Of a stretch of 64,000 nt of DNA, positions 1 to 64,000 are shown piece by piece. The notes under the pieces are model-generated. The model was not told the DNA's origin. It did no database searches and saw only the letters and a list, made by a program, of their open reading frames with translations. Origin of the DNA: Candidatus Gottesmanbacteria bacterium (GTDB lineage Bacteria; Patescibacteriota; Microgenomatia; UBA10105; UBA927); contig CAVQFA010000005.1 in assembly GCA_963711735.1 (NCBI GenBank), positions 199,525-263,524 of the forward strand, in the 5' to 3' direction. Both the position numbers and the translations under genes were made by a program. Each line of letters opens with the position of its first letter. Positions within the stretch are counted from its first letter, which is position 1.

Positions 1-9468
<9,468 letters not shown>

Positions 9469-9516: not shown

Positions 9517-10278
9517 ATGGCAGCAAAAACAGTGAACAGAAAACCGGTACGTAAACTGAAACGCTTATTTCTTTTTTTACTTCTTGTTATAACCAGTGCT
9601 GTCGCTGTTGTATTTATTATATTACTTATAAGGAGACAGGAAGATCTTGCGCTGACACCGGCTGAGAAAGTGAAAAAAGAGACAGCTGCAACAATTGCCG
9701 CAATCGGAAAGCTTATGGTGCTTCCGGGCGGTGAAGAGCCGACAATTGCAAGTGTTGCTGATATAACGAAACTGGCAAGTCAACCTTTTTTTACTAATGC
9801 AAAAAACGGAGATAAAGTGCTTATATATAACAAAGCGCGGAAAGCAATTCTTTACAGGCCGGAAACAAATATGATTATAGAAGTTGCTCCCGTGACGATT
9901 GCAACAGGTTCCGGATCAACAACGGCAGGTACACCGGTGCAATCGCCACCGGGAACGAACCTGTCGTATTCTATAGTCCTCTGGAACGGTACTGATGTCA
10001 CAGGGCTCACAAAAAAATATGAACCGGTCCTTACCTCCAAAATTTCCAAAACCACAGTATTGGAGCGTTCAAACGCCAAAAGCATGGAATACGATAAAAG
10101 CATGGTTATTGATTTGACAGGCACACACAAGAGCGACGCGACAAATATAGCAAGCACACTCGGATTTATCACTTCTGAACTTCCTAAAGGGGAGACGAAA
10201 CCATCAAAAGGTGATTTTCTTATCATTCTCGGCCTTGACGCAGTTCCTGCATCACCATCACCTACACCGACGAAGTGA
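9517..10278 (+). CDS. Membrane-anchored hypothetical protein: N-terminal TM helix, extracytoplasmic domain, PASPSPTPTK tail.
   Basis: ORF 9472..10278; ATG at 9517 precedes a basic stretch and the hydrophobic run LFLFLLLVITSAVAVVFIILLI. Confidence 0.5.
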   Translation: MAAKTVNRKPVRKLKRLFLFLLLVITSAVAVVFIILLIRRQEDLALTPAEKVKKETAATIAAIGKLMVLPGGEEPTIASVADITKLASQPFFTNAKNGDKVLIYNKARKAILYRPETNMIIEVAPVTIATGSGSTTAGTPVQSPPGTNLSYSIVLWNGTDVTGLTKKYEPVLTSKISKTTVLERSNAKSMEYDKSMVIDLTGTHKSDATNIASTLGFITSELPKGETKPSKGDFLIILGLDAVPASPSPTPTK

Positions 10279-10312
10279 TACATACCTTCCCGAATGCCTT
10301 CTTTACTCTCAT

Positions 10313-10678
10313 ATGCGTGCTCGGGTACAATACGGTCATATGCTGAACTTTCATGACCACAAACTTTGGCAGGATGCTTTTGTTGTCCTCATGGACATTC
10401 ATGACGTTATAGACGGTCTCGATACGGACAAGCATGAAGAAATTATTGAAGCACTCCTTGAATCCGCGCAAAACGTTGCTTCGAAAATAGCGGATGGATT
10501 ATCCCGCTCAGATCACCGGATCGGCAGGGACCTTATTTATGATTCTGTCGGACTTGTAGCTATCACACGAACCGAACTTGCCGTCGCATGGGGAAGGGGA
10601 ATTGTTGATGATCAGACATTTAAAACAATTGATGACAAGTACGCTCAGTTAACAAACGCATTGCAGTCGTATAAATAA
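10313..10678 (+). CDS. Four-helix-bundle protein resembling the 23S rRNA intervening-sequence protein family.
   Basis: Pattern ...LWQDA...NVASKIADGLSRSD...DSVGL..TEL.VAWGRGIVDDQTF..IDDKYAQLTNALQSY resembles the W-Q-A / NIAEG..R / GS..E motifs of that family. Start chosen at internal ATG 10313 to avoid overlap with the upstream gene. Confidence 0.4.
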   Translation: MRARVQYGHMLNFHDHKLWQDAFVVLMDIHDVIDGLDTDKHEEIIEALLESAQNVASKIADGLSRSDHRIGRDLIYDSVGLVAITRTELAVAWGRGIVDDQTFKTIDDKYAQLTNALQSYK

Positions 10679-11146
10679 GTGAATACAACTGTGAACGTAT
10701 ATATAGGTTCAGACCATCGCGGTTTTCATCTCAAAGAATCTCTCAAAGCATGGCTTTCTCATAGCGGGTATTCAGTTGTCGATTGTGGTAATGCACAATT
10801 TGAACCTACGGATGATTTCCCGGATTATTGTTTCGCGGTTGCTGACAAAGTAATCTCCGATGATACCTCCATGGGAATTGCTATTTGCGGTTCTGGTGGC
10901 GGTGTGACGATTGCAGCCAACAAAGTGACCGGTATACGCTGCGGACAAGCTCTCAATATAGCCGATGTTATACACAACAGAAGACATAACAATATGAATG
11001 TTCTGGCAATCGGATCGGATTTTGTATCAGACGCAGAGGCAAAATCTATGGTTGATGCGTTTTTAAAAACGCCATTTGGCAATGAGGAACGGTTTCTCCG
11101 GCGTCTCGGGAAAATTGCCGCACGTGAATGCACAGCGGACAGATAG
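10679..11146 (+). CDS. rpiB: Ribose-5-phosphate isomerase B (RpiB/LacAB family).
   Basis: IGSDHRGFHLK, ICGSGGGVTIAANKVTGIRCG and HNNMNVLAIGSDFV match RpiB signature segments; GTG start. Confidence 0.8.
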   Translation: MNTTVNVYIGSDHRGFHLKESLKAWLSHSGYSVVDCGNAQFEPTDDFPDYCFAVADKVISDDTSMGIAICGSGGGVTIAANKVTGIRCGQALNIADVIHNRRHNNMNVLAIGSDFVSDAEAKSMVDAFLKTPFGNEERFLRRLGKIAARECTADR

Positions 11147-11218
11147 CAGAATAATTCATTCAAATACTATGTAAATTGCCTCTTGCCAACTATACCGTTC
11201 ATTCGTTATCGTCATACT

Positions 11219-11866
11219 ATGATCGATGTTATTCCCGGTATTTACGAAGCAGACCTGAAAGAAATATCACGAAAAGTATCCATCGTTTCACCATTTGTTT
11301 CGTGGGTTCAGATTGATGTCTCGGACGGAACGTTTGTTGCGAAAAAATCATGTATGGAACTGTCAAAAATAGCCCCCATCATCACTGATTCACAGAAAGA
11401 CGGGGAAGTATCATTTGAAGCGCATATCATGGCGACCCGTCCGGAAAAGTTTGTGAAGGATTTAGGCGCAGGAGGATTCAAACGGATTATCGCACATATA
11501 GAATCGGATGACCCGCGTATATTTTTAGATGAAGCGCAATACGAAAGTGTTGAAGTAGGTCTTGCTATAGATGCACCGACAGAGTTGTCACATCTTGATC
11601 CGTTCCTCGAGGAAATCGATATGGTTTTAGTTATGACAGCAGAGGCCGGAGCCAGCGGTCAGGAACTTATGGCAGAAACTGTAGAAAAAATACGGCTTAT
11701 TCATGAAAATTATCCCGATCTTCCTATCGAAGTTGATTGCGGAATCAATGACAAAACCGCCAAAATCGTAACTGATGCAGGTGCAAGCAGGCTTGTTGTA
11801 ACATCGTATTTATTTGATCATGAGCGGGACTTAGCACAGTCCATTGCACATCTAAAAGGCTTATAA
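11219..11866 (+). CDS. rpe: Ribulose-phosphate 3-epimerase-like (TIM-barrel) protein.
   Basis: Hallmarks: IDVSDG.F, FEAHIMA, GFKRIIAHIE, VLVMTAEAGASGQ and VDCGIN resemble Rpe motifs. Start at internal ATG 11219. Confidence 0.65.
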   Translation: MIDVIPGIYEADLKEISRKVSIVSPFVSWVQIDVSDGTFVAKKSCMELSKIAPIITDSQKDGEVSFEAHIMATRPEKFVKDLGAGGFKRIIAHIESDDPRIFLDEAQYESVEVGLAIDAPTELSHLDPFLEEIDMVLVMTAEAGASGQELMAETVEKIRLIHENYPDLPIEVDCGINDKTAKIVTDAGASRLVVTSYLFDHERDLAQSIAHLKGL

Positions 11867-11873
11867 TGGGTAT

Positions 11874-13772
11874 ATGCTTGCCGAAGAACTCACTCGCATA
11901 GCATCCAAAATCCGCTTACATATCCTTACTATGACGCACGCGGCGGGATCAGGGCATCCGACATCCTGTTTTTCGCTTGTCGATCTGGCAGTTGTTCTCT
12001 ATTTTCGGTATCTGCGGTTTGACCTTGATAATGCCCAAAATCCGAATAACGACAGGGTAATTTTTTCCAAAGGACACGCTTCGGCCCTTCTCTACGCCCT
12101 ATACGCAATTACCGGGAAACTTTCCCAAAAGGATCTAACAGGATACCGGATGTTTGAAAGTCCTCTTGAGGGGCATCCGACATACCGTTTTCCGTACGCA
12201 GAAGCAGCAACAGGATCATTAGGTCAGGGACTTTCAATTGCGTGCGGAGAAGCATGGGGCATCCGGAAACATTCTGAGTCCGGGAAAGGTACGGATGCTA
12301 CCGGTACATTACTTCCCCGGGTATATTGTTTACTGGGGGACGGAGAACTCGCGGAAGGGTCGGTTTGGGAGGCGGCAGGATGGGCAAGTCATAATAAACT
12401 CGGAAATCTGACAGCAATCGTTGACGTCAACCGGTATGGTCAGGCTTCCGAAACAATGCTCGGACACGATATGGACGCATACCGTAAGCGGTTTGAATCG
12501 TACGGCTGGGTGTCAATTGTCATCGACGGGCACAAATACGATGAAATAATTGCGGCTTTCGATAAAGTGACAACGTATGCTTCAGGCCCATCGGTCATTT
12601 TAGCAAAAACTTTAAAAGGAAAAGGTGTGCCGGAATGGGAAGATAAAGATAACTGGCACAATAGGATGTTACCGAAAGATACATTGGAAGAGGCTATACA
12701 GAAATTTGAGAAGGAATCAGAAAATCTGCCCCTGGTCTCTATTGGGAAACCTCCTGTATCCGGCAAGAATACCGGTAATGTTAAAGTACATAAATCAGCA
12801 CCGCTTCCGTTACCGATGCCGGCTCTGTATGATACCAAAACGCTCATACCGACCAAACGTGCGTTTGGAAACGCGCTTGTCCGCATCGGAAAAATGACGC
12901 CGAATCTCATGGTTCTTGATGCAGATATGGCAAATTCAGTTCACCTGGATCTTTTTCGTGAAGCTTTCCCTCAACAGTTTCTTGAAATGTACATTTCGGA
13001 ACAGAATATGGCAGGGGTTGCAACAGGGCTTGCCAAACGGGGATTTATACCGGTTGTGTCTACGTTTGCCTCGTTTCTCACCCGGGCACATGACCAGATC
13101 CGCATGATGCCTTTAAGTAACGTACACATTGTTGTCGGAGGAACGTATGTGGGTGCATCAGAGGGCAGGGACGGACCGTCACAAATGGGACTTGAAGATC
13201 TCGCGATGATGCGCTCTCTGTTCGGATCTACCGTCGTATATCCTGCCGATCCGTATGCAACTGAACTTTTAACGGAAGAGCTTATAAAAGGAAACGGTGT
13301 TTGTTATATCCGGACAACGCGGGAACCGACACCGGTAATTTATGGTCCGAACGACAAGTTTACCATCGGCGGTTCACATGTTTTCCCTCCGCACACGGGT
13401 GATGCCAAAAATCTCACGACAATCATTACAGCCGGAATCACTCTTCACGAAGCACTTATTGCACAAAAAACTCTTACAAAGGACCACATACCCGTTCGTG
13501 TGATTGATTGTTATAGTATCAAACCGATAGATATTCAAACGCTTCAGATGGCAGCAAAAGACTCAACAGCAATAGTCATTGTTGAAGATCACTATCCTGA
13601 AGGAGGTTTAGGGGAAGCTGTATTATCCGGTTTGTCCGGTATTGCACATCCGGGAACATATCATATGGCAGTCAGAAAATTACCTATGTCAGGAAGCCCG
13701 AATGAGCTTCTTTCGTATGAGGATATATCAGCGGATGCAATTATCCGGACCATACGGGGTATAAAATCATAA
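11874..13772 (+). CDS. tkt: Transketolase (single-chain; N and C domains fused).
   Basis: GSGHPTSCFS...RVIFSKGHASALLYA and the GDGELAEG TPP-binding motif; 632 aa. Confidence 0.9.
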   Translation: MLAEELTRIASKIRLHILTMTHAAGSGHPTSCFSLVDLAVVLYFRYLRFDLDNAQNPNNDRVIFSKGHASALLYALYAITGKLSQKDLTGYRMFESPLEGHPTYRFPYAEAATGSLGQGLSIACGEAWGIRKHSESGKGTDATGTLLPRVYCLLGDGELAEGSVWEAAGWASHNKLGNLTAIVDVNRYGQASETMLGHDMDAYRKRFESYGWVSIVIDGHKYDEIIAAFDKVTTYASGPSVILAKTLKGKGVPEWEDKDNWHNRMLPKDTLEEAIQKFEKESENLPLVSIGKPPVSGKNTGNVKVHKSAPLPLPMPALYDTKTLIPTKRAFGNALVRIGKMTPNLMVLDADMANSVHLDLFREAFPQQFLEMYISEQNMAGVATGLAKRGFIPVVSTFASFLTRAHDQIRMMPLSNVHIVVGGTYVGASEGRDGPSQMGLEDLAMMRSLFGSTVVYPADPYATELLTEELIKGNGVCYIRTTREPTPVIYGPNDKFTIGGSHVFPPHTGDAKNLTTIITAGITLHEALIAQKTLTKDHIPVRVIDCYSIKPIDIQTLQMAAKDSTAIVIVEDHYPEGGLGEAVLSGLSGIAHPGTYHMAVRKLPMSGSPNELLSYEDISADAIIRTIRGIKS

Positions 13773-13831: not shown

Positions 13832-14830
13832 ATGTACGGAAAAATATTTATTGGCGGCACATTTGATCAATTTCATGCCGGTCACGAAGCAATTCTTCTT
13901 CGGACTTTTCAGGAGGGGGAGAGAGTGATCATCGGCCTCACGTCTGACGCATTTATCAAGAAGTATAAAGAAGGACCTCACCGTCCGTTCGAAGACAGAA
14001 AAGAAACTATCGAAAACTGGCTTGATACGCGGGAGCTTCTTCCCCGTGCAACAATTATTCCGATTGACGATCCGTATGAACCCGCTGCAAGCGATGCGGA
14101 TTTACAGGCGCTTATAGTTACGAAAGAAAATAGGGAGAGGGGAAATGAAATAAATGCAAGAAGAATAAAAAATTCTCTTCAGGAACTTATACTTGTTGAA
14201 ATACCGATGGTGTCGGCAGAGGATGGTATGCCAATTTCTTCAACCCGCATCAGAAATAAGGAAATTGATGAAAAAGGGCATCTCTATATGCCGGAAATAC
14301 TCCGTTCGTCGCTTCAAAAACCTCTCGGGAGGGTCCTTACAAATGGTAATATGAAACACGTATTTCATGAAAGACAGGGGAAGATAATAATTACTATAGG
14401 TGATATCACAACATCCGTATTTCTGGAGAATGGCGTCATGCCGAACCTCGCTGTTGTAGATCTCTTTGTCCGTCGCAGACCATACAAAACACTCGAAGAG
14501 TATAAATTTCCGCCTGGAACCATTGTACGGAAAGTCAAAAGCGGTCCCGGATTTATCTCACATCAGGCTATAAGCGAGCTGGAAATGTGGGCTTCCGGTG
14601 CTGCACTTGACGCGTCAACGCATACAGTCTTTGTCGTTGATGGGGAAGAAGATCTGATTGCACTCGCTGCAATTACTGTCGTTCCTCTCGGAAGCATCGT
14701 GTACTATGGTCAGCCGGGGATTCCGTCTGTCGATGAGCTTTATAAAACCGAGGGGTTAGTGGAAGTCAATATTACGGATGCTGTCAAAACGACTGTTCGG
14801 TCTCTTATGAGCCGTTTTATTACGAAGTGA
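13832..14830 (+). CDS. Fusion of an archaeal-type phosphopantetheine adenylyltransferase (cytidylyltransferase fold) with a DUF359 / GTP-dependent dephospho-CoA kinase-like domain.
   Basis: N-terminal GGTFDQFHAGHEAIL...GLTSD...ISSTRIR is typical of archaeal PPAT. C-terminal GDITTS...VVDGEEDLIALAAITVVPLGSIVYYGQPG matches my recollection of DUF359. Confidence 0.6.
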   Translation: MYGKIFIGGTFDQFHAGHEAILLRTFQEGERVIIGLTSDAFIKKYKEGPHRPFEDRKETIENWLDTRELLPRATIIPIDDPYEPAASDADLQALIVTKENRERGNEINARRIKNSLQELILVEIPMVSAEDGMPISSTRIRNKEIDEKGHLYMPEILRSSLQKPLGRVLTNGNMKHVFHERQGKIIITIGDITTSVFLENGVMPNLAVVDLFVRRRPYKTLEEYKFPPGTIVRKVKSGPGFISHQAISELEMWASGAALDASTHTVFVVDGEEDLIALAAITVVPLGSIVYYGQPGIPSVDELYKTEGLVEVNITDAVKTTVRSLMSRFITK

Positions 14831-14876: not shown

Positions 14877-15734
14877 ATGGCAAAATATGTTCCTGATGTA
14901 AAAACACAACGGTGGGTCATTATTTCTGCGATGAGAACCCGAAGACCGACAAATCTGGAGGGCAAACCCGCCCCGACATTTAAATGTCCATTCTGTTATG
15001 GAGCGGAAAAGTCAACTCCGCCGGAGGTTTATCGGATCGGGGAGGGGGAAAAGGATGCACCGGGCTGGCAGGTTCGCGTAGTTCCCAATAAGTATCCGAT
15101 AACTGACATACACGAAGTGATCATTCATAGTCCGGAAGATACCAAGGATATCGAACATCTTCCGTCTGATCAGGTTGTCCGCATCATGACTGCTTACCGT
15201 GACAGATTCCGTGCGCACGATGATGAAGGACATGTCATCATATTCTGTAACCATGGTTTTCAGGCAGGAGCGTCTTTGGCTCACCCGCATTCCCAGCTCG
15301 TCGTTGTTCCGCGACAAATAAATCTTGATGCGTTATCGCTTGAACCGATTGCAAATATCGTGACGGAAACTCCGGCATTTGTTACGTACTGTCCTGATTT
15401 TTCCCAGTGGCCGTACGAGGTTTGGATTGCACCCAAAACGAAGGGGGAGAAATTCGGGGATATCGACGATGCCCGCGTTAAGTTAGCTGCAGAATCGCTT
15501 CAGAACGCATTGAAACGTATCGAAGCAGTGCTCACCGATCCGCATGTGCCGTTTAAACAGGCGAATGATCCGTTTGTCTACAATTATCATATCTTTCACG
15601 GGACAAATTGGTTTATCAGGATAACACCGCGTGCTGTGCACAGAGCCGGATTTGAGCTCGGATCAGGACTTAACGTGAACGTCGTAGATCCCACAGATGC
15701 CGCCAGAAGTCTTTCGGAAGTTACATTGAAATAA
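14877..15734 (+). CDS. galT: Galactose-1-phosphate uridylyltransferase-like (HIT superfamily, GalT branch).
   Basis: CPFC zinc motif near the N-terminus and the HPHSQ (HxHxQ) active-site motif. Confidence 0.7.
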   Translation: MAKYVPDVKTQRWVIISAMRTRRPTNLEGKPAPTFKCPFCYGAEKSTPPEVYRIGEGEKDAPGWQVRVVPNKYPITDIHEVIIHSPEDTKDIEHLPSDQVVRIMTAYRDRFRAHDDEGHVIIFCNHGFQAGASLAHPHSQLVVVPRQINLDALSLEPIANIVTETPAFVTYCPDFSQWPYEVWIAPKTKGEKFGDIDDARVKLAAESLQNALKRIEAVLTDPHVPFKQANDPFVYNYHIFHGTNWFIRITPRAVHRAGFELGSGLNVNVVDPTDAARSLSEVTLK

Positions 15735-15753: not shown

Positions 15754-15954
15754 TTATAATTGACCTTTTTGCTGTAATCCCAGAAGCCACATCACGGCTT
15801 CTTTTTTGTATCGTCTGTCACCGCGGGAATTTATACGGATTGCAGGAAGTTTACCCCTTTTTCCCCATCGTTTAATAGTGAGAGGGGAAACGCGCAGAAT
15901 TTTTGCTACTTCACGGACAGTGAGTAAATCGGGCCAATCATCACCGAGAGCCAT
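15754..15954 (-). CDS. Small helix-turn-helix DNA-binding protein (excisionase/MerR-like HTH).
   Basis: 66 aa; LTVREVAKILRVSPLTIKRWGKRGKLPAIR is a classic HTH. Confidence 0.5.
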   Translation of the reverse strand: MALGDDWPDLLTVREVAKILRVSPLTIKRWGKRGKLPAIRINSRGDRRYKKEAVMWLLGLQQKGQL

Positions 15955-23944: not shown

Positions 23945-24940
23945 TTACTGTGTTTGCTGAGGATCAATAACTTCGGGCGGCGGAGGATCCACAGGTACGG
24001 ATGGAGGAAGATCCTCTCCGGTTTCCGTTGTAGGCGGTTCATTATTTTTTCTCCGGAAGAGGTAGAAGAGAAGGATAGCCAGGAGAAGCCCCAGAAGCCC
24101 TAAAAATAAATATTGGTACGGAAAAGGCTTCTTTTCTTCTTCAACGGGAACAGGAGTTTCATACGGTGTTTCCGTGGGAGTAAGCGCAATATCAGAATCA
24201 ACAAGTTCGGTATATTGCACCTTCGGGTATTTATTTATTGTCGGCGTGGGAGCAGGGAGATAGGTATAATATTGGGACGTGCTGGTTGTAGTCGTTGTGC
24301 TTGATGACGCAGGATAGGGAGTGAGCGTCGGATACGGTGTGTATGTTGGAAAAGGTGTCGGATTCCATCCTCCCTGTCCGGGAGCAGTCGTGTTTGTAGG
24401 ATTGGGAGGTATGGGGGTTGAAGTCGGTTGCACCTGCGTTTGGATTATGATACCTGCGCCGTGTACTTTTGAACAGTCCAGGATATTTGCGTATGACGTC
24501 GAGAATATCTGTGATGCCGTCGTAGATCCGCAGAGGACATCAATCGTCGTTGATCCGCTTGACACTTTTGGTTTTATCGTAATGTTGGCAAGGATTCCGT
24601 CGCCTGTTTTTCCCTGAAAAAGGGAATTTTCCATACCGTGAATTTCAAGTCTTGCGTGACTCGGGTCGTTGGCATAGGAAAACCCGGAAAAAAATCCACC
24701 CGTCGTTACGCCTGTTATATCAATTTTGGACGGGTCATACCCGAGAATGGCATCAGTACTCATTGCCTGGTTTGTATCGACACTGATACTTATATACAGA
24801 GTGATTGTTGAGTTCGGATCAACTGTTACCGTTTGGGGTGCAACACTTAAAGATACGGCGTACGTTGTCGGTACATAAACAATACCGAGAAATATAAAAA
24901 ACAACACCGCGGATATGTGTCCAAGCAGATTAGTTTTCAT
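23945..24940 (-). CDS. Cohesin-like domain surface protein: signal peptide, cohesin-like beta domain, Pro/Thr-rich linker, C-terminal TM anchor.
   Basis: VSLSVAPQTVTVDPNSTITLYISISVDTNQAMSTDAILGYDPSKIDITGVTTGGFFSG...GDGILANITIKPK..GSTTIDV follows the cohesin beta-sandwich pattern. PT-rich linker; FLGLLGLLLAILLFYLF TM. Confidence 0.6.
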   Translation of the reverse strand: MKTNLLGHISAVLFFIFLGIVYVPTTYAVSLSVAPQTVTVDPNSTITLYISISVDTNQAMSTDAILGYDPSKIDITGVTTGGFFSGFSYANDPSHARLEIHGMENSLFQGKTGDGILANITIKPKVSSGSTTIDVLCGSTTASQIFSTSYANILDCSKVHGAGIIIQTQVQPTSTPIPPNPTNTTAPGQGGWNPTPFPTYTPYPTLTPYPASSSTTTTTSTSQYYTYLPAPTPTINKYPKVQYTELVDSDIALTPTETPYETPVPVEEEKKPFPYQYLFLGLLGLLLAILLFYLFRRKNNEPPTTETGEDLPPSVPVDPPPPEVIDPQQTQ

Positions 24941-27032
24941 CGTATTTGGTTTCTAAGGTTTTTCTGATAAGCATGATGTCGCGTGCGTTGACGCATCCGT
25001 TGTAGTCGAGGTCTCCGGCGATCTTATCCTGTGTGGTAAGTTCGCTGCATGCTTTTGAAAGTAGAGCAGAAACCGCGGTAAAGTCATTCATATCCGCCTT
25101 GCCGTCCTGCGGGTTTATATCTCCGGGTTCAAGAGTCAGACCGGTGAAATCAAATATCATGCCCGCTGTCTCGCCGGTTGTGCCGATATCTGTAAGTGAT
25201 AATGAAGACGGGGATATGGTAAGCGTTATTGAACCGTCTGTGGTACAGGGTGCTGTCTGACCTGACTGTTTGCAGAATTTCCGTGCGACATGCTTTTCTC
25301 CTTTGACTGTTACCGAATACCCCGGTCCCTGTGGTAATGATGTTTCAGGTATAGAAACAATTGCCCGGTATATGCCGTTTCCTGCATGCGTAAACGTAAT
25401 CGGGTTAGTAGTAAGGTCGATATTTGTTTTTACAAATCGTATCCGCGCTTTTGCACCTTCCGCCTCGCTACCTGTTACACCTTCAAATTTTATACGGAAT
25501 TCAAATGAATACATTCTGTTTGCCGGCGGTAATGTCGGTGTGGGAGAGATCATTCTTGACGGAACAGGTGAGGGTATAAGCGAAATTCTGGGCGCTGTCG
25601 GTGTGGGAGATTTATATGGTGAAATTCTTATAGTCGGTAACCGTGTAGGTGTTGGAGAAAGTCCGCATGTACAATCTTTTTCATAAGGACACCGTGGGTT
25701 GTAACATACCTGAGCGGTAATACACGTATTTGTACCGGTATTTGTTGTATTCGTTACGCTATTGCCGGGGGCGCACGGATAGGGACCGCAAATCAAACCG
25801 GTGCTGTAGGCAGCATTTACGGATTGAGCGTTACAGTCAGCATTTGTTCTGCAGGTTTTGTAGCATGCAGGTAGTGGTGTTATTTTGACCGTCGGAACCG
25901 GTCCGATTGTTGTCCCCGGAGGGCACATATTCTCAGTTATCGGAAGCAAACATGCCGGTTTGCTGTCTAAACAGGGTGGTCTGGGAACGCAAGTCGGTTT
26001 TATTGTGATAATGGGTATGGTAGAACATTCCGGAAGTTCTTTTCTATCCGATGCCAACCAGAGCTTATACTGAATTTTTTCTTCTTGTGTTAAGGGTACT
26101 ATGACCGTCGCACACGCTTGTCCCGGTGGTGCGTATCCTTTGCAGGAATCCGGCCAGTAGAGATTATCCCCCGTACCGCGAACGCGGCTCCAGCAGACTA
26201 TCGGTGGTTTTGGTGTGGTGAGAAACGGCTGGAGTCTTAAATTCGTAAAATGGATTCTTCCTAGCGGTACAGGAGAGGAAGTTACTATAGGAGGATTGCT
26301 GAATGATGGAGTATTGGTTACGACAGGAGGATTGCTGAATGCCGGAGTGTTAGTTACGACTGGCAGATCTCTGAATGCCGGAGTGTTAGTTACGACCGGA
26401 AGATCTCTGAATGCCGGAGTGTTGGTAGGAGGGTTGCTGAATGCAGGAGTATTGGTTGGGGGAGTGCTTAAGTCGATATCTGTGGCAACGGAAGTACTTT
26501 CAGATAAAACATTTAAAACAGATAAATCGCTTGTGATATCAAGTGTTCCGGTGAAAGCCGTACCGATTGGAGCTTCAAAAAATCTCCGTCCCTTATAATA
26601 AACCCAATCGCCGGGTGTTTTTCCGTTATATGTCCGTATCTCGTCAGACCACCACTTTTTCCCGTCTGAATAGAAATAGATAAACATACGCATTTCTACA
26701 GGAGTGCCTCCCTGGTTTTCCTTCCAGATTGCTTCGAGCGTTGTGTAGGTATTATCCTCAGGAGGATCCGAGTGGATTTGTATACCGGGATCGTTGCCCC
26801 AGTAATACGCACCGTTGGTAAAAATATAGAAAGCATCTGCACTCAGTGATACGTAATCTGTTGCCCATTTAATGGGATTTTTACCAAGTGATGGTGCCTC
26901 CGTTGCAGCTTTTTTCCGGAGCTCCGCCCGCTGTTTTACAGACCACAGAAGGACGGGAATAGCAGCAATCAGAAGGAGAAAGAAACAGACATAAACTATT
27001 TGTTTGAAAGTAACTTTCGAAGATAAATCCAT
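24930..27032 (-). CDS. Large surface protein with short tandem PPTNTPAF(S/R) repeats, a Cys-rich region and a C-terminal dockerin-like module (two Ca-binding loop repeats).
   Basis: C-terminus ...GDINPQDGKADMNDFTAVSALLSK...GDLDYNGCVNARDIMLIRKTL fits D-x-[DN]-x-[DN]-G-x-[VI]-[ND]-x-x-D-x3-[LI]-[KR]. N-terminal TM/signal; overlaps the cohesin gene by 11 nt. Confidence 0.6.
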   Translation of the reverse strand: MDLSSKVTFKQIVYVCFFLLLIAAIPVLLWSVKQRAELRKKAATEAPSLGKNPIKWATDYVSLSADAFYIFTNGAYYWGNDPGIQIHSDPPEDNTYTTLEAIWKENQGGTPVEMRMFIYFYSDGKKWWSDEIRTYNGKTPGDWVYYKGRRFFEAPIGTAFTGTLDITSDLSVLNVLSESTSVATDIDLSTPPTNTPAFSNPPTNTPAFRDLPVVTNTPAFRDLPVVTNTPAFSNPPVVTNTPSFSNPPIVTSSPVPLGRIHFTNLRLQPFLTTPKPPIVCWSRVRGTGDNLYWPDSCKGYAPPGQACATVIVPLTQEEKIQYKLWLASDRKELPECSTIPIITIKPTCVPRPPCLDSKPACLLPITENMCPPGTTIGPVPTVKITPLPACYKTCRTNADCNAQSVNAAYSTGLICGPYPCAPGNSVTNTTNTGTNTCITAQVCYNPRCPYEKDCTCGLSPTPTRLPTIRISPYKSPTPTAPRISLIPSPVPSRMISPTPTLPPANRMYSFEFRIKFEGVTGSEAEGAKARIRFVKTNIDLTTNPITFTHAGNGIYRAIVSIPETSLPQGPGYSVTVKGEKHVARKFCKQSGQTAPCTTDGSITLTISPSSLSLTDIGTTGETAGMIFDFTGLTLEPGDINPQDGKADMNDFTAVSALLSKACSELTTQDKIAGDLDYNGCVNARDIMLIRKTLETKYDEN

Positions 27033-58347: not shown

Positions 58348-59921
<1,574 letters not shown>

Positions 59922-60023
59922 TAATATAAAATTGTCAGTGATCACGAACTTCGATTGTATCGAAGGGTCGTTGACAGTTTTTCTCTCACAATGTTCCTAT
60001 CACCATCCGGTTGTTAAACAAAT

Positions 60024-60049
60024 TAATCCTCCTTTACGGAGGATTTTTT
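60024..60049 (+). terminator. Rho-independent terminator ~100 nt after the 16S 3' end.
   Basis: AATCCTCC-TTTAC-GGAGGATT followed by TTTTTG. Confidence 0.6.
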
Positions 60050-60243
60050 GTATCTTGTTTAATTCAGAATTACATTAAAATATTTCGTAACATATAGACT
60101 GTCAGAATGCTACGGATGCGTATAATATGATATGCATTTATACTATTAGTAATTGAGGCATGAGAATATACATGTTAAAATCGTTTCGTAGTGACGTTGC
60201 GATAAGGTGGCACAATTGATAATTTCAACCTGAATATGCATTT

Positions 60244-60273
60244 GGCGCGGTGGCGAAGTGGTAACGCGGGTGT
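60244..60273 (+). other. 30-nt partial duplicate of the tRNA-Cys 5' half (acceptor 5' strand + D-arm + anticodon-stem 5' strand).
   Basis: GGCGCGGTGGCGAAGTGGTAACGCGGGTGT vs tRNA-Cys GGCGCAATGGCGAAGTGGAAACGCGGGTGT (3 differences), then diverges. Confidence 0.5.
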
Positions 60274-60348
60274 TAGTCCCAGCACAATCATTCCAAATCT
60301 GAGAAGATTTTGGGAATAGATTTGCGGGATCCCGTATTTGCTAAATTC

Positions 60349-60419
60349 GGCGCAATGGCGAAGTGGAAACGCGGGTGTCTGCAAAACACCTATGCGAGGG
60401 TTCGATTCCCTCCGCGCCT
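60349..60419 (+). tRNA. trnC: tRNA-Cys (anticodon GCA), U73 discriminator; its own 5' acceptor strand pairs poorly with the 3' strand.
   Basis: GGTGT-CTGCAAA-ACACC anticodon arm, GAGGG-TTCGATT-CCCTC T-arm, 3' CCGCGCC-T. 5' GGCGCAA gives only 5/7 acceptor pairs, whereas the upstream partial copy GGCGCGG gives 7/7. Confidence 0.65.
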
Positions 60420-60667
60420 CAACTAAGCAAATACGGGACAAAAACAGCTACCCGCCTCGACTCGCAGAGACAGAGTCGATGCGAGGCGAGTGCAGCGGTT
60501 CGACCTGCCCCGCTGTAGTCCCGAGCTTATCGAAGGATGAAGGAGGGTTCAGGCACACGTAACAATTGTGATAAAATTAACAATCCGAGAGGGTTTACCC
60601 TGTAAATTTCAACGAGTCACGAAGTGACTCGCAAAGAAATATACAAGGTAAATTTTTGAAATTTACA

Positions 60668-60739
60668 GGGTGACTAGTTCATCGGTAGAACGCTTTCCTG
60701 ATAAGAAAGAGGCGCATGGTCCGACTCCATGGTCACCCA
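60668..60739 (+). tRNA. trnI: tRNA-Ile (anticodon GAT).
   Basis: GGGTGAC TA GTTC ATCGGTA GAAC G CTTTC CTGATAA GAAAG AGGCG CATGG TCCGACT CCATG GTCACCC A. Confidence 0.85.
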
Positions 60740-60786
60740 CTGCACAATTTCTTGAGTCACGGAGTTTGGATCGTATAATCGGGCTT

Positions 60787-61065
60787 ATGGATGATCCTAT
60801 ACAATTGAAAACAATAAATATCGGTCAAATTCCTTCGTATGAAATTGGATTGGTATCAGAGGCTGCACATGCTCTTGGTTTTCGTGTAAAAGGTACCTAC
60901 GGAACAGGGACATACTACAATGTTACCCCGACAAACAAGGAAATAACTGTCAGTGGCGGAAATTACGGGATCCTACTATCATATCCCGAAGATAAGGATG
61001 CTGGAAAATTTTGGGATAAATTTTTTGAACTTAAAGGTTCAAAAGGCCAAGTTCTCCTAACGTAG
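60787..61065 (+). CDS. Hypothetical 92-aa protein encoded between tRNA-Ile and its 3' direct repeat.
   Basis: The tracked ORF 60670..61065 begins inside the tRNA; first plausible ATG is 60787. No motif. Confidence 0.3.
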   Translation: MDDPIQLKTINIGQIPSYEIGLVSEAAHALGFRVKGTYGTGTYYNVTPTNKEITVSGGNYGILLSYPEDKDAGKFWDKFFELKGSKGQVLLT

Positions 61066-61183
61066 AAGCGGAATAATAAGTCATCCCTGATATTAATAGC
61101 AACTTTTGACCCCTTTCAATTCTATTTCCTCGATGGTACATTCAGAAGAATATAAAAAATAGTGAAGTTTGGGGCGTTATAAC

Positions 61184-61248
61184 AGTTCATCGGTAGAACG
61201 CTTTCCTGATAAGAAAGAGGCGCATGGTCCGACTCCATGGTCACCCAC
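61184..61248 (+). repeat. 65-nt exact direct repeat of tRNA-Ile positions ~9-76 (3' two-thirds, lacking the 5' acceptor strand); att-site-like.
   Basis: AGTTCATCGGTAGAACGCTTTCCTGATAAGAAAGAGGCGCATGGTCCGACTCCATGGTCACCCAC occurs at 60676-60740 and 61184-61248. Confidence 0.7.
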
Positions 61249-61272: not shown

Positions 61273-64000
61273 TTATATATTTTCTTCGCCTTTAAACCAT
61301 TCATAATAAACCGCAGGAATGAAAAGGAGCATAATTGTTGAAGCAATAAGAATTCCTGAAATTATTGCTCCTCCCAGTCCTCTCCATAGAGGATCAGCAA
61401 GAGTAATCGGTAATAGTCCTAGAACCGTACAGAGTTTTGTCAGAATGATGGGTTCAAGTCTGGATGCACCCGCGTCAGCAATAGCTTCTTTAAATCCCAT
61501 GCCCTCTTTTCTGTTGCGATTGATTTTATCAACGATAAACATGGAGTTTGTCACGACGATTCCGAAAAGAGACAGAATTCCGATAAGTGCCGGGAAAGAA
61601 AGCGGTGTTTGTGTAATGGCAAATATTACAAATACGGAGGATACAGCAAGCGGAATTACGAGTAACACGATAAATGCTTGTCGGTAAGACTGGAACTGAA
61701 CTACCATAGTGACCAATATGAGAATAAAGGCAAGAATCATTGCCTGTATTATGGATTGAACACTTTTTTTGTTTTCGTCGTTAATCCCTCCTGTTTTCCA
61801 CCCGTATCCTTCAGGAAGTTTCAGTGAATCTGCGAACGCTTCCAGTTGCTTGTTTATTTCAGTTGCGTTGTATCCGTTTTTAACAGACGCGGATACGGTC
61901 AAAGTCCGTTTGCCTCCTTCCCGTGTTATCGTTGTAGGATTGACCTGCGGGATAAAAGTCCCGAGAGAAACTAAAGGAACATAAGTACCTTGTGATGTAG
62001 GTATGAGTATCGATCCGAGCATTTCCGGGGTTTCTGTAAGTTTTCCGTATGTGAGTACAATATTTTCTTTGTCTTTAGCGCTTTTATCAAATTTGACATC
62101 TGCAAGAGTAAATCCACTTACAAATGTTCTCAGAGTGAGTCCGATCGTATCCATTGATACACCGTTTGCTGCTATTTTTTGCCGATCCGGCAGAAAAACG
62201 ATTTTACTCGTTCCTGGTTTTACACTTTTATCTATATTCGTTACTCCCGGTATTCCGGAAAGGTACGTTTGAATTTTATCCGCATATGTATCCAAAAAAC
62301 CCAAATCGTCACCCGAGAGTTTAATTGCTAAATCGGAGCCTGCCGGCGGCCCGGATGTAATTTCTGTTACGGACACTTTACCAGTTTCATACGTCTTAAA
62401 TGCATTCCGTACGGATTCTGCAATTTGTGAAGAAGGGGTCTTGCGCTTGTTTTTCCCAACAAGGTGGATAGTAGCAAGCGCCGTATTTGGTGTATCCACA
62501 GAACTTCCGAATGTTGACAGGGATGAACCGATATCGATGACTGTAAACAATGATTCGGGAGTCTTTCGTAATTTTTCGATCAGATTCAATCCGTCCGCGG
62601 TAACTGTATTGGTATTTGTACCCGGCGGAAGCTCAAGGGAAACATAGATTCTGTCTCCGTCTGTTTTTGGAAAAAATTCATTTTTGACAAATCCCATGGG
62701 AAGAAGGGCAAATGCCCAGAGAGCGTAGAGAATGATTCCGATGATAACTTTTTTACGTGCCTTGGGTGAATTAAGTATGTTTGTTATGAGCCAATAATAT
62801 TTGGAACTGACGAGTTCCAGATTAATAATTCCGTGATCAAAGTACCCATAAATTGTTTCGAAAACCGATTGAATTCCGTTTGATGACCGCAAAAACGTAA
62901 GTATGCGTTTTTTTATAGTAGGAAAGATTATATATATAACAAAGATAAGCAGGATATAAAGAACGGCGATCATCGGGAAGAGCGGATTTGACCGAAAAAC
63001 GAGTGTGAGTACGCTGAAAGAAAGTACTAGAAGTATAAACCTGAGAAGTACGGAAACCCGGTGTGCAATTGCAGGTTTCAGAAGTATGATGCATACTTGG
63101 CAGTGTAATCAGTACGGCAATTGCAGTGGATGATAGCATGGTTACAGTGACGACGACGGGTATGGGTTTTATAAATTCACCGATGATACCGGTTGAAAGA
63201 AGTAAAGGTACGAAAGACCAAATCGTCGTAATTGTCGTTGACCAGATTGGGACAATAAGGTCACGCCATACGACAAGTCCGGTTTGCGTCGGCGTAAACT
63301 TGCCGGTTCGATAATAGCTCGTCATAGCCTGCACGGTAACGATCGTATCATCAATCAGAAGTCCGAGCGCAATAAGAAACGCGAATAACGAAAGGAAATT
63401 AATAGACATTCCTGTATAACGCATAAAGAAAAAAGCTGAAAGGAACGTAAGTGGAACCGTAAGTGACGAAATAAGTGCCTGTCTCAGTCCCAAAAAAACG
63501 AATAAACATGCCATGACAAGAAGTATGGTGGAACGGAACTCTCCTACAAGTTCATTAAATTGATCTGTTATGTCTTCGGCGGCGTTGACAATTGTATCAA
63601 TTGAATATTCATCACCATACAAATGTATAAGTTTATAAACGATACGTTTCACGTCAGTATCGACTACATCAAAATTCACGTTTGTGTTTTTGTATACGCT
63701 CATAGTGACTGTTCGTTGCGGTTTTGTTTCTCTGTCAGCGTAATACGACGGAAGGATGTTCTCGTTTGAAATTTCCATAATTGTACTGATATCACCGAGT
63801 TTGACGGGAGTTCCGGAGACTGAAATACGGGTATTACGGAGATCTTCGAGTGTTGTTATCGTAGGATCGATTGTCAGTGAAAAGGAATTTATAGAGGTAT
63901 TTACTGATCCGGCTGGGTAGGAAGCAATTGCTGTTTTTACGGCTTGGCTGACCGCAATGGGATTTATGCCGAAATCACGCATTTTTTCAGGGGATAGCGT
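61273..64000 (-). CDS. RND-superfamily (AcrB-like) efflux transporter; start beyond window end, interrupted by an apparent 1-nt frameshift near 63091-63097.
   Basis: Two overlapping minus-strand ORFs (62837..63982 and 61273..62973) in different frames. Hand translation shows ...IAVLITLPS then, after a +1 shift, CIILLKPAIAH... (cf. AcrB LTPALCATMLKP). TM block LGLLIDDTIVTVQ. Confidence 0.7.

What the first reader, a model, noticed from the sequence alone, without database searches (positions are those of the whole stretch)
13832..14830. Archaeal-type PPAT fused to a DUF359 / GTP-dependent dephospho-CoA kinase-like domain
The N-terminal half has the archaeal phosphopantetheine adenylyltransferase signature (GGTFD..H.GH ... 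ISSTRIR). The C-terminal half recalls DUF359, whose members are the archaeal GTP-dependent dephospho-CoA kinase (VDGEEDL, YGQPG). A single polypeptide carrying the last two steps of CoA synthesis, in a bacterium, would imply salvage of 4'-phosphopantetheine from a host or environment.
Basis: partly seen in the sequence, partly recalled or inferred. Interest (0 to 1): 0.55.

Follow-up and report, generated by a model that had tools for sequence, protein, structure and literature searches.

The report
Fused archaeal-type CoA-finishing enzyme in CPR bacterium
This gene in an ultra-small (Patescibacteria/CPR) bacterium encodes one protein that joins the archaeal versions of the last two enzymes of coenzyme A synthesis; the call is correct, but the fusion occurs in hundreds of related bacteria and was already known from archaea, so it is a solid annotation, not a discovery.

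Summary
ORF 13832..14830 (+) encodes 332 aa. Residues 1-152 are an archaeal-type phosphopantetheine adenylyltransferase (PPAT). Residues 153-332 are a DUF359/arCOG04076 domain, the family of the GTP-dependent dephospho-CoA kinase (DPCK) of Thermococcus kodakarensis. Both halves pass curated family cut-offs. The nearest solved structures are 3do8 and 8jvc, by sequence and by predicted fold. The PPAT motifs and the three mutagenesis-tested aspartates of the kinase (D191, D210, D274 here) are all present.

The host is a true bacterium: the window carries a bacterial 16S rRNA gene, a bacterial ribosomal-protein operon and peptidoglycan genes. Best hits and synteny place it in the Microgenomates group, near Gottesmanbacteria.

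The fusion is not rare. About 470 clusters at 50% identity match, as do relatives in at least 521 species genomes, nearly all Patescibacteria. Sources name them only "pantetheine-phosphate adenylyltransferase". A PPAT-arCOG04076 fusion in uncultured archaea was the clue that led to the archaeal DPCK in 2019.

The inference of 4'-phosphopantetheine salvage does not follow from the fusion. In four related loci the fusion lies next to CoaBC, a pantoate-kinase-like gene and acetate-CoA ligase. No upstream CoA gene lies in this 64-kb window, and the rest of the genome could not be read.

Verdict: new member of a known kind, low to moderate interest.

The parts
13832..14830 (+). Whole gene: 332-aa PPAT-DPCK fusion (stop codon 14828-14830)
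   Evidence: ORF list. Pfam finds two domains. The AlphaFold2 model has mean pLDDT 88.4 and pTM 0.58, which suggests (inference) two well-folded domains joined by a less confident linker.
13832..14287 (+). N-terminal domain (aa 1-152): archaeal/eukaryotic-type phosphopantetheine adenylyltransferase
   Evidence: NCBIfam PRK00777 scores 149.3 bits against a cut-off of 104, over aa 3-152. PDB 3do8 (A. fulgidus PPAT) matches at E 2.9e-17 over aa 4-150. Foldseek gives TM 0.81-0.86 to 3do8.
13853..13885 (+). GGTFDQFHAGH (aa 8-18): nucleotidyltransferase (T/H)xGH nucleotide-binding motif
   Evidence: G9, T10, F11, H15, G17 and H18 are invariant in the 40-sequence alignment A1.
14234..14254 (+). ISSTRIR (aa 135-141): second conserved motif of the PPAT domain
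   Evidence: R139 is invariant, and S136 and R141 are at least 90% conserved in A1. The motif aligns to ISSTRIK of 3do8.
14288..14827 (+). Linker plus C-terminal domain (aa 153-332): DUF359 / arCOG04076, GTP-dependent dephospho-CoA kinase family
   Evidence: Pfam DUF359 scores 77 bits against a cut-off of 25. The NCBIfam DPCK model covers aa 152-328, model positions 4-168 of 176. PDB 8jvc matches at E 1.7e-13. Foldseek's top hit is 8jvc, with target TM 0.81-0.87.
14402..14404 (+). D191, equivalent to TK1697 Asp48 (catalytic)
   Evidence: Alignment to 8jvc. The residue was identified from the mutagenesis primers and text of PMC6650551. Invariant in A1.
14459..14461 (+). D210, equivalent to TK1697 Asp67 (catalytic)
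14642..14656 (+). GEEDL (aa 271-275); D274 is equivalent to TK1697 Asp125
   Evidence: G271, E272, D274 and L275 are invariant in A1.
14705..14719 (+). YGQPG (aa 292-296): conserved DUF359 motif
   Evidence: Y292, G293, Q294 and P295 are invariant in A1. The motif aligns to YGQP of 8jvc.
10679..13772 (+). Upstream same-strand genes: RpiB (10679-11146), ribulose-phosphate 3-epimerase (11183-11866) and transketolase (11874-13772). This is context, not CoA metabolism.
   Evidence: Pfam. Tkt, Tal, Rpe or DeoC recur upstream of the fusion in the closest clade of loci, L001-L024.
14877..15734 (+). Downstream same-strand gene: GalT-like HIT-family nucleotidyltransferase, 46 bp after the fusion
   Evidence: The Pfam and NCBIfam GalT matches are weak. 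The gene lies in 21 related loci, all within 3 kb of the fusion (median gap 24 bp), and all in the L001-L024 clade.
15782..15802 (+). Terminator-like hairpin after the GalT-like gene; possible end of the transcription unit
   Evidence: Pattern scan. The number of such sites in the region is not above the shuffled expectation, so this is weak evidence.

Best explanation
The gene encodes a bifunctional 'CoA synthase' built from the archaeal versions of the last two enzymes of the pathway. The N-terminal domain would adenylylate 4'-phosphopantetheine with ATP to give dephospho-CoA. The C-terminal DUF359 domain would then phosphorylate the 3'-OH of dephospho-CoA to give CoA. By analogy with the T. 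kodakarensis enzyme, the phosphate donor is probably GTP. Fusion keeps the two activities in a 1:1 ratio and may favour hand-over of the intermediate. Shown here: the domain identities, the fold, the conserved catalytic residues, the bacterial host and the wide distribution in Patescibacteria. Inferred: both activities, the phosphate donor, and where the 4'-phosphopantetheine comes from. The source (import, or CoaBC elsewhere in the genome) is left open.
For: Pfam finds both domains above their gathering cut-offs. NCBIfam PRK00777 (PPAT) scores 149 bits against a cut-off of 104, and the DPCK model covers aa 152-328. The nearest solved structures by sequence are the A. fulgidus PPAT 3do8 (E 2.9e-17) and the T. 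kodakarensis GTP-dependent DPCK 8jvc (E 1.7e-13). The AF2 model has pLDDT 88, and its top Foldseek PDB hits are 8jvc, 8jvg and 8jvf (target TM 0.81-0.87), then 3do8 (0.81-0.86). The three aspartates whose mutation impaired complementation in T. kodakarensis (D48, D67, D125; PMC6650551) correspond to D191, D210 and D274. These and the PPAT HxGH and ISSTRIR residues are invariant across 40 homologues that are only 42-53% identical to the query, which indicates purifying selection on both active sites. All of the best 120 homologues carry both domains. About 470 clusters at 50% identity match at E<=1e-30, and most of the 150 best listed are 300-370 aa and match along nearly the whole query. The host is bacterial: SSU rRNA scores 1304 bits, and the L11-L1-L10-L7/L12-NusG operon, MreB and PBP2 are present. 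In related loci the fusion sits in an operon-like cluster with CoaBC, a pantoate-kinase-like kinase and acetate-CoA ligase, which ties it to CoA metabolism by genomic context.
Against: No member of the bacterial fusion clade has been assayed. The NCBIfam equivalog models for PPAT and DPCK are built on Thermococcales, and their cut-offs are not reached (68 bits against 290, and 65 against 300), so orthology rests on broader models and on residues. The phosphate donor cannot be read from the sequence with the tools used. In this window the neighbours are pentose-phosphate genes and a GalT-like gene, which give no local support from CoA context.
Confidence: 0.85

Rival explanations
1. Salvage reading. 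The organism has no PanK/PoK or CoaBC, and this fusion is its only CoA enzyme. It would then have to import 4'-phosphopantetheine released by other cells and convert it to CoA in two steps.
For: No coaA, coaX, coaBC, PoK, coaE or bacterial coaD was found in the 64-kb window, by Pfam scans of all large ORFs or by tblastn with the E. coli enzymes. None was found within +/-10 kb of the fusion in the closest clade, L001-L024. One related locus, L052, keeps the same frame of genes as the CoA cluster but has an M20 peptidase where CoaBC and PoK sit in L032, L086 and L087, which is consistent with lineage-specific presence or absence. Scavenging of 4'-phosphopantetheine by PPAT+DPCK-only organisms is an accepted hypothesis for mycoplasmas (PMC8721197). 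Saccharibacteria are reported to lack CoA and pantothenate synthesis (PMC11659515).
Against: The window is about 17% of its 371-kb contig, so absence here says little. Related Patescibacteria carry CoaBC plus a pantoate-kinase-like gene right next to the fusion (L027, L032, L086, L087). A Roizmanbacteria contig carries CoaBC. PMC9166423 reports pantothenate-to-CoA enzymes in some Microgenomatia MAGs. No transporter candidate is linked to the gene in this window.
Confidence: 0.4
2. Full-pathway reading. The fusion is simply the terminal part of a complete, partly archaeal-style pathway (pantoate kinase, a phosphopantothenate synthetase, CoaBC) encoded elsewhere in this genome.
For: Four related loci show the cluster: fusion, GreA, CoaBC (TIGR00521, 378 bits against a cut-off of 220), pantoate-kinase-like GHMP kinase (NF040725, 163 bits; other GHMP models score at most 35) and acetate-CoA ligase. 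NCBI names one such kinase 'pantoate kinase [Patescibacteria group bacterium]'. Some Microgenomatia MAGs are reported to have the enzymes (PMC9166423).
Against: Those loci belong to a different sub-lineage, whose fusion proteins are 33-35% identical to the query (L027, L032). No such genes lie near the fusion in the window or in its closest clade. No phosphopantothenate synthetase was identified even in the cluster-bearing loci. None of the 120 best CoaBC or 120 best PoK-like hits lies on a contig with the length of the window's contig, which is a weak fingerprint test.
Confidence: 0.4
3. One half is not what it seems. The N-domain might be another adenylyltransferase (NMN, FMN or a sugar-phosphate), or the DUF359 domain might be a regulatory or differently specific kinase, so the protein would not make CoA.
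For: CTP_transf_like is a broad superfamily, and weak hits to NMNAT, glycerol-3-P cytidylyltransferase and RfaE models appear. The equivalog cut-offs are not met.
Against: The PPAT subfamily model scores 149 bits, while NMNAT models score at most 20. In tri-domain relatives a separate NMNAT-type domain sits in front of the PPAT domain, so the two are distinct paralogues. The kinase's catalytic Asp triad and GEEDL and YGQP motifs are invariant. The fusion with PPAT and the clustering with CoaBC fit the CoA pathway.
Confidence: 0.07
4. Artefact: an archaeal fragment mis-assembled or mis-binned into a bacterial contig, or two genes joined by a sequencing error.
For: Both domains have their closest characterised relatives in archaea.
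Against: The gene lies between bacterial genes on one strand, with no shift in GC content (0.45-0.46, the same as its surroundings). The same 332-aa protein is found in two independent assemblies with the same neighbours. More than 70 related bacterial loci, some on contigs of 1.0-1.2 Mb, carry the same uninterrupted fusion.
Confidence: 0.02

Closest known systems
PPAT-arCOG04076 fusion proteins of uncultured archaea (e.g. AIF21550.1, marine group II/III Euryarchaeota), described by Shimosaka, Makarova, Koonin and Atomi 2019 (PMC6650551)
   Same: Same two domains. A DPANN archaeal locus retrieved here (L030, Norongarragalinales) has them in the same order and aligns over query residues 8-325 at 32% identity. 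The implied function is the same: the last two steps of CoA synthesis in one polypeptide.
   Different: The host here is a bacterium (Patescibacteria, Microgenomates group). The 2019 paper treats the family as archaeal and mentions no bacterial members. AIF21550.1 itself was not examined here.
T. kodakarensis TK1697 GTP-dependent dephospho-CoA kinase (PDB 8jvc, 8jvf, 8jvg) and TK2128 / A. fulgidus 3do8 archaeal PPAT
   Same: Sequence and fold homology to each half. The catalytic Asp48, Asp67 and Asp125 are conserved, as are the PPAT motifs.
   Different: Those are stand-alone proteins from hyperthermophilic archaea, and identity to them is only about 25-30% (Foldseek alignments). GTP use is demonstrated only for TK1697.
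Eukaryotic CoA synthase (COASY): a PPAT domain fused to a DPCK domain
   Same: It works like it: a bifunctional enzyme for the same two consecutive reactions, with PPAT first. From established knowledge (not tested here), the eukaryotic PPAT domain belongs to the same archaeal/eukaryotic-type family.
   Different: The COASY kinase domain is the P-loop CoaE type. Here the kinase is the unrelated DUF359 fold, described as thiamine-pyrophosphokinase-like in PMC6650551. No P-loop CoaE signal was found in this protein. The two are therefore convergent fusions, not one family.
Bacterial CoaD (TIGR01510) plus CoaE
   Same: Same two reactions. CoaD shares the nucleotidyltransferase superfamily fold (Foldseek target TM 0.60-0.69).
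   Different: TIGR01510 scores 13.6 bits against a cut-off of 103, and no CoaE homology was found. The canonical bacterial enzymes are separate proteins.
Truncated CoA pathways of mycoplasmas and other reduced bacteria (PPAT+DPCK only, or DPCK only), PMC8721197
   Different: Mycoplasmas use the bacterial CoaD and CoaE, unfused. Whether this organism's pathway is truncated is not known.

Membership tests
Archaeal/eukaryotic-type PPAT (NCBIfam PRK00777; Pfam CTP_transf_like) | Score above the curated family cut-off | tested here: met
   PRK00777 scores 149.3 bits against a cut-off of 104 over aa 3-152. PF01467 scores 54 bits against 21.
Archaeal/eukaryotic-type PPAT (NCBIfam PRK00777; Pfam CTP_transf_like) | (T/H)xGH nucleotide-binding motif and C-terminal ISxTRIR motif | tested here: met
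   GGTFDQFHAGH lies at aa 8-18 and ISSTRIR at aa 135-141. The key residues are invariant in A1.
Archaeal/eukaryotic-type PPAT (NCBIfam PRK00777; Pfam CTP_transf_like) | Fold like a solved archaeal PPAT | tested here: met
   Foldseek to 3do8 gives target TM 0.81-0.86 with the N-domain at pLDDT above 90.
Archaeal/eukaryotic-type PPAT (NCBIfam PRK00777; Pfam CTP_transf_like) | Equivalog-level match to a characterised enzyme (NF041124, Thermococcales CoaD) | tested here: not met
   67.8 bits against a cut-off of 290. The model is taxon-specific, so this limits the claim of strict orthology but not the family assignment.
Archaeal/eukaryotic-type PPAT (NCBIfam PRK00777; Pfam CTP_transf_like) | ATP:4'-phosphopantetheine adenylyltransferase activity | not testable with these tools
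   Needs an enzyme assay or complementation.
DUF359 / arCOG04076 GTP-dependent dephospho-CoA kinase | Pfam PF04019 above the gathering score | tested here: met
   77 bits against 25, aa 193-329, profile positions 1-125 of 126.
DUF359 / arCOG04076 GTP-dependent dephospho-CoA kinase | The three acidic residues shown by mutagenesis to matter in TK1697 (Asp48, Asp67, Asp125) | tested here: met
   They correspond to D191, D210 and D274 in the alignment to 8jvc and the paper's primers. They are invariant in 40 homologues.
DUF359 / arCOG04076 GTP-dependent dephospho-CoA kinase | Fold like the solved enzyme (8jvc) | tested here: met
   The top Foldseek PDB hits are 8jvc, 8jvg and 8jvf, at E down to 3e-12 and target TM 0.81-0.87.
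DUF359 / arCOG04076 GTP-dependent dephospho-CoA kinase | Equivalog-level match (NF041125, Thermococcales DPCK) | tested here: not met
   65.1 bits against a cut-off of 300. This probably explains why public annotation names only the PPAT half (inference).
DUF359 / arCOG04076 GTP-dependent dephospho-CoA kinase | GTP rather than ATP as phosphate donor; DPCK activity | not testable with these tools
   The structure paper for 8jvc is not in the searchable library, and no guanine-recognition residues could be checked.
PPAT-arCOG04076 fusion architecture | Both domains in one uninterrupted ORF, with PPAT N-terminal | tested here: met
   The archaeal L030 has the same order, as do all 120 best homologues.
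Eukaryotic CoA synthase (COASY) | P-loop CoaE-type DPCK domain | tested here: not met
   No CoaE family appears in the Pfam or NCBIfam output. The C-terminal domain is DUF359. It works like COASY but is not a member.
Bacterial CoaD | TIGR01510 above cut-off | tested here: not met
   13.6 bits against 103.3.

The most novel reading that the evidence does not exclude
Microgenomates-group CPR bacteria as a whole may have replaced bacterial CoaD and CoaE with an archaeal-derived, probably GTP-using, fused CoA synthase. This is a family the literature found here treats as archaeal. In the Gottesmanbacteria-like lineage of this window it could be the only CoA enzyme, which would make the cells obligate scavengers of 4'-phosphopantetheine. 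Sister lineages either kept a DPANN-like pantoate kinase + CoaBC module next to it, or extended it into a three-enzyme NMNAT-PPAT-DPCK protein that finishes both NAD and CoA.
Probability: 0.35. Interest if true: 0.5.

Novelty: new member of a known kind. Interest (0 to 1): 0.3.

Why it matters
It matters in practice because the second domain is under-annotated. The public names seen for these proteins are 'pantetheine-phosphate adenylyltransferase' or 'cytidyltransferase-like protein', and the NCBIfam DPCK equivalog cut-off is missed. Metabolic reconstructions could therefore score the last CoA step as missing in Patescibacteria genomes. This is inference.

It matters biologically because it adds a clear case to the list of archaeal-type enzymes in CPR bacteria. 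It also shows that the supply of CoA precursors varies within the group: CoaBC and a pantoate-kinase-like gene sit next to the fusion in some lineages and not in others. If the window's lineage truly lacks the upstream steps, 4'-phosphopantetheine would be a defined nutrient to add in cultivation attempts.

Tried and rejected
1. **Literature.** None found a paper describing the bacterial fusion. This covers the open-access library only, so it is not proof that nobody has noted it. The 8jvc structure paper was not found, so GTP-binding residues could not be checked.

2. **Walking beyond the window.** I looked up edge proteins with the look-up of encoding contigs in four attempts. None is on record with exactly my ORF boundaries, so no extra flank was obtained.

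3. **Contig-length fingerprint.** I looked for CoaBC or PoK-like hits whose longest contig equals that of the window (371,484 bp) or of the large fusion-bearing contigs. None appeared among the 120 best of each search. The test is weak because only 120 of 7,900 and 120 of 965 hits are listed.

4. **Domain phylogeny.** Neighbour-joining trees of each domain were built from locus-encoded proteins. Branches are long and star-like, and the few archaeal PPATs nest among bacterial sequences without resolution. I draw no conclusion about the direction of transfer.

5. **Functional link to the GalT-like neighbour.** The adjacency is confined to one clade that also conserves the other neighbours, so it is explained by shared synteny.

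6. **Promoter and terminator scan.** Counts are not above the shuffled expectation.

7. **Unknown gene upstream of the fusion in the CoA-cluster loci.** I considered this 286-313-aa gene as the missing phosphopantothenate synthetase. It has a Pol-beta-type nucleotidyltransferase signature (GSGS...DDIDLF) and no match to any phosphopantothenate synthetase family, so this remains only a speculation.
Full report
**1. The observation**

A single ORF runs from ATG 13832 to the stop codon at 14828-14830 on the + strand and encodes 332 aa. The exact protein is on record in public assemblies, on a 371,484-bp NCBI/ENA contig and a 31.8-kb Logan contig with the same neighbouring genes.

**2. What the two halves are**

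- **Family models.** Pfam finds CTP_transf_like at aa 7-142 (54 bits, cut-off 21) and DUF359 at aa 193-329 (77 bits, cut-off 25). NCBIfam places aa 3-152 in PRK00777, the archaeal-type pantetheine-phosphate adenylyltransferase subfamily, at 149 bits against a cut-off of 104. It aligns aa 152-328 to nearly the whole Thermococcales GTP-dependent dephospho-CoA kinase model.
- **What is not met.** The two Thermococcales equivalog cut-offs are not reached (68 bits against 290, and 65 against 300). That is expected for a distant lineage. It probably explains why the sources name these proteins only as PPAT.
- **Not the bacterial enzyme.** Bacterial CoaD (TIGR01510) scores 13.6 bits against a cut-off of 103.
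- **Solved structures.** By sequence, the best matches are the A. fulgidus PPAT 3do8 (E 2.9e-17, aa 4-150) and the T. kodakarensis GTP-dependent DPCK 8jvc (E 1.7e-13, aa 155-296).
- **Predicted fold.** An AlphaFold2 model built on 40 homologues has mean pLDDT 88.4. Its pTM of 0.58 suggests two confident domains with an uncertain relative orientation. Its best Foldseek hits in the PDB are 8jvc, 8jvg and 8jvf (target TM 0.81-0.87), followed by 3do8 (0.81-0.86) and then bacterial PPATs.

**3. Active sites**

Shimosaka et al. 2019 (PMC6650551) showed GTP-dependent DPCK activity for TK1697. They also found that D48A and D67A, and more weakly D125A, impair complementation. In the alignment to 8jvc, read together with the paper's mutagenic primers, these residues correspond to D191, D210 and D274. 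In an alignment of 40 homologues that are only 42-53% identical to the query, several sets of residues are invariant:
- the three aspartates;
- G271, E272 and L275 of GEEDL;
- Y292, G293, Q294 and P295;
- the PPAT residues G9, T10, F11, H15, G17, H18 and R139.

Both active sites are therefore under purifying selection.

**4. The host and the local context**

The window is bacterial:
- a full bacterial SSU rRNA gene lies at 58351-59920 (1304 bits);
- the L11-L1-L10-L7/L12 and NusG block is on the minus strand;
- MreB, PBP2, DprA and topoisomerase I are present.

GC content around the gene (0.45-0.46) matches its surroundings. Upstream on the same strand are RpiB, ribulose-phosphate epimerase and transketolase. 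A GalT-like HIT-family gene lies 46 bp downstream. No CoA gene lies anywhere in the 64 kb. This was checked by Pfam scans of all large ORFs and by tblastn with E. coli CoaA, CoaBC, CoaD and CoaE.

**5. How common the fusion is**

- **Protein database.** 740 proteins match at E<=1e-5, and the best 120 all carry both Pfam domains. Where they are named, they are called 'pantetheine-phosphate adenylyltransferase' or 'cytidyltransferase-like protein'. The organism names shown are Candidatus Gottesmanbacteria or Patescibacteria group bacteria.
- **Exhaustive search.** A search of 1.84 billion cluster representatives gives 470 clusters at E<=1e-30. Most of the 150 best listed are 300-370 aa long and match along nearly the whole query.
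- **Species genomes.** Of the 80 best loci, 72 are bacterial-labelled matches that span both domains. Their labels include Gottesman-, Woese-, Roizman-, Levyi- and Kaiserbacteria, Paceibacterota and Saccharibacteria, and some lie on contigs of 1.0-1.2 Mb. One is a DPANN archaeon with the same fusion (L030). Seven are archaeal stand-alone PPATs, about 39-43% identical to the N-domain: six from Bathyarchaeia/Bathyarchaeota and one (L079) labelled Methanobacteriota.
- **Placement of the window.** Its protein is 43-50% identical to its nearest relatives. It shares the gene order Tkt/Tal/DeoC - fusion - GalT-like - L7/L12 - L10 with the Gottesmanbacteria-like clade L001-L024.

**6. What was already known**

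The PPAT-arCOG04076 fusion in uncultured archaea was the clue that led to the discovery of the archaeal DPCK (PMC6650551; also PMC6393860). Those papers treat the family as archaeal and mention no bacterial members. None of my ten full-text searches found a paper describing the bacterial fusion. That is a statement about the open-access library only. The architecture is recorded in the domain annotation of the databases.

**7. The salvage inference**

A fused PPAT-DPCK does not by itself imply a truncated pathway. The CoA cluster in related loci was found by tblastn with E. coli CoaBC against the 1.26 Mb of held sequence, which hit two Patescibacteria loci.

| Locus | Gene order or finding |
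|---|---|
| L027, L032, L086, L087 | solute-binding protein - unknown Pol-beta-NTase-like protein - PPAT-DPCK fusion - GreA - CoaBC - pantoate-kinase-like GHMP kinase; acetate-CoA ligase or an AMP-binding enzyme lies further downstream in L032 and L086 (extra genes intervene between GreA and CoaBC in L027/L032 and after the kinase in L032; the far-downstream genes of L027 were not annotated, and L087 has no ligase within the genes listed) |
| L085 | CoaBC + GHMP kinase pair |
| L084 (Roizmanbacteria contig) | CoaBC alone |
| L052 (Levyibacteriota) | same frame of genes, but an M20 peptidase where CoaBC and the kinase would be |

- In L032, CoaBC scores 378 bits on TIGR00521 against a cut-off of 220. 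The GHMP kinase scores 163 bits on the pantoate kinase model NF040725, below its cut-off of 380, while other GHMP models score at most 35. The acetate-CoA ligase scores 805 bits against 729.
- NCBI names one such kinase 'pantoate kinase [Patescibacteria group bacterium]'. Its relatives at about 50% identity include Woesearchaeota and Nanoarchaeota proteins.
[quoted passage not shown] Saccharibacteria are reported to lack CoA and pantothenate synthesis (PMC11659515).

The upstream supply therefore varies between lineages. For this organism it cannot be decided from 64 kb. I give salvage and a full pathway elsewhere roughly equal weight.

**8. Mechanism**

- **Shown:** the domain identities, fold, catalytic residues, conservation, bacterial host, and genomic linkage to CoA genes in relatives.
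- **Inferred:** the N-domain transfers AMP from ATP to 4'-phosphopantetheine. The C-domain phosphorylates the 3'-OH of the resulting dephospho-CoA, probably with GTP as in TK1697. Fusion fixes a 1:1 ratio of the two activities and may favour hand-over of the intermediate.

The protein works like eukaryotic CoA synthase (COASY). It is not a member of that family, because its kinase has the unrelated DUF359 fold rather than the P-loop CoaE fold.

**9. Verdict**

The physiological inference is untested and is not implied by the fusion. The feature is a typical member of a large family that was already known in archaea and is recorded, though under-annotated, in databases. I rate it a new member of a known kind, with low to moderate interest (0.3). 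The side observations are the more interesting leads: the tri-domain NMNAT-PPAT-DPCK proteins, and an archaeal-style CoA gene cluster in some Patescibacteria.

Noticed in passing
L028:9494-10981; L061:6053-7690; also the 495-545-aa ORFs in L035, L041, L049, L050, L064, L070, L072, L076: These are tri-domain relatives. An extra N-terminal archaeal-type NMN adenylyltransferase domain (GRFQPFHKGH; NCBIfam PRK01153 117 bits against a cut-off of 127, TIGR01527 105 bits) precedes PPAT and DUF359, so one protein would finish both NAD and CoA. Most of these loci have NAD synthetase (NadE) divergently upstream. A sister group (L039, L043, L046, L048, L059) has a separate 162-174-aa homologue (not annotated) just before, or in L059 two genes before, a 370-386-aa fusion, which looks like the unfused precursor state.
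   Followed up: partly
L032:4930-14744; L027:24-8319; L086:3735-11687; L087:6055-12027: A recurring CoA gene cluster in some Patescibacteria. The order is solute-binding protein, unknown Pol-beta-NTase-like protein (286-313 aa, conserved GSGS...DDIDLF, overlapping the start of the fusion gene), PPAT-DPCK fusion, GreA, CoaBC and a pantoate-kinase-like GHMP kinase. L027 and L032 have an extra LPG_synthase_C-like gene between GreA and CoaBC. An acetate-CoA ligase or AMP-binding enzyme lies downstream in L032 (after a GNAT gene) and L086, and L086 then has a phosphoketolase. No phosphopantothenate synthetase was recognised. The pantoate-kinase-like protein is about 50% identical to DPANN (Woesearchaeota, Nanoarchaeota) proteins.
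   Followed up: partly
window 272-9468 (+): Three very large ORFs of 683, 880 and 1482 aa. Their GC content is 0.55-0.57 against 0.41-0.48 in the rest of the window, and AT skew reaches +0.36. The 1482-aa ORF has five collagen triple-helix repeat stretches (E 6e-45) plus H-type lectin and SH3 domains. The other two have no Pfam match. They are probably repetitive surface or adhesion proteins.
   Followed up: partly
window 14877-15734 (+): A GalT-like HIT-family protein with weak family matches only (PF01087 27 bits; NCBIfam GalT 36-48 bits, far below the cut-offs). It is conserved in 21 related loci, all within 3 kb of the fusion (median gap 24 bp), and all in the L001-L024 clade. Shared synteny probably explains this. 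Dephospho-CoA is formally ADP-pantetheine, so a nucleoside-diphosphate-X phosphorylase or transferase next door is a speculative functional link.
   Followed up: partly
window 23945-27032 (-): Adjacent genes with a cohesin domain (330 aa) and a dockerin domain (699 aa), suggesting a cohesin-dockerin surface complex in this small-genome bacterium.
   Followed up: no
window 61273-63982 (-): An AcrB/RND-type transporter is split into two overlapping ORFs. One covers profile positions 509-1018 and the other 197-482. This may be a frameshift or pseudogene, and the upstream part runs towards the end of the window.
   Followed up: no
window 58351-61239: The 16S rRNA gene is followed by tRNA-Cys and tRNA-Ile and by a partial tRNA-like match (61184-61239, 33.5 bits). 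No 23S rRNA gene lies in the remaining 4 kb. A '23S rRNA intervening sequence protein' homologue sits far away at 10211-10678. The ORF at 60670-61065 overlaps tRNA-Ile and is probably spurious.
   Followed up: no
Loci L001, L003, L004, L008, L011 and others: Many third-party (TPA) MAG records are titled 'uncultured Gammaproteobacteria bacterium' or 'Pseudomonadales', and one is titled 'Weeksellaceae'. They carry the fusion with the same gene order as Gottesmanbacteria or Roizmanbacteria loci. These record titles look like unreliable taxonomic labels, and I did not use them as evidence of distribution outside Patescibacteria.
   Followed up: partly
L080:8263-10468; L075:5019-6370: In Bathyarchaeia the stand-alone PPAT is preceded by an ECF-transporter S-component-like gene. 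In L080 a pantoate-kinase-like gene (NF041122, 132 bits) also lies between them. This gives an archaeal counterpart of the PoK-PPAT linkage.
   Followed up: no
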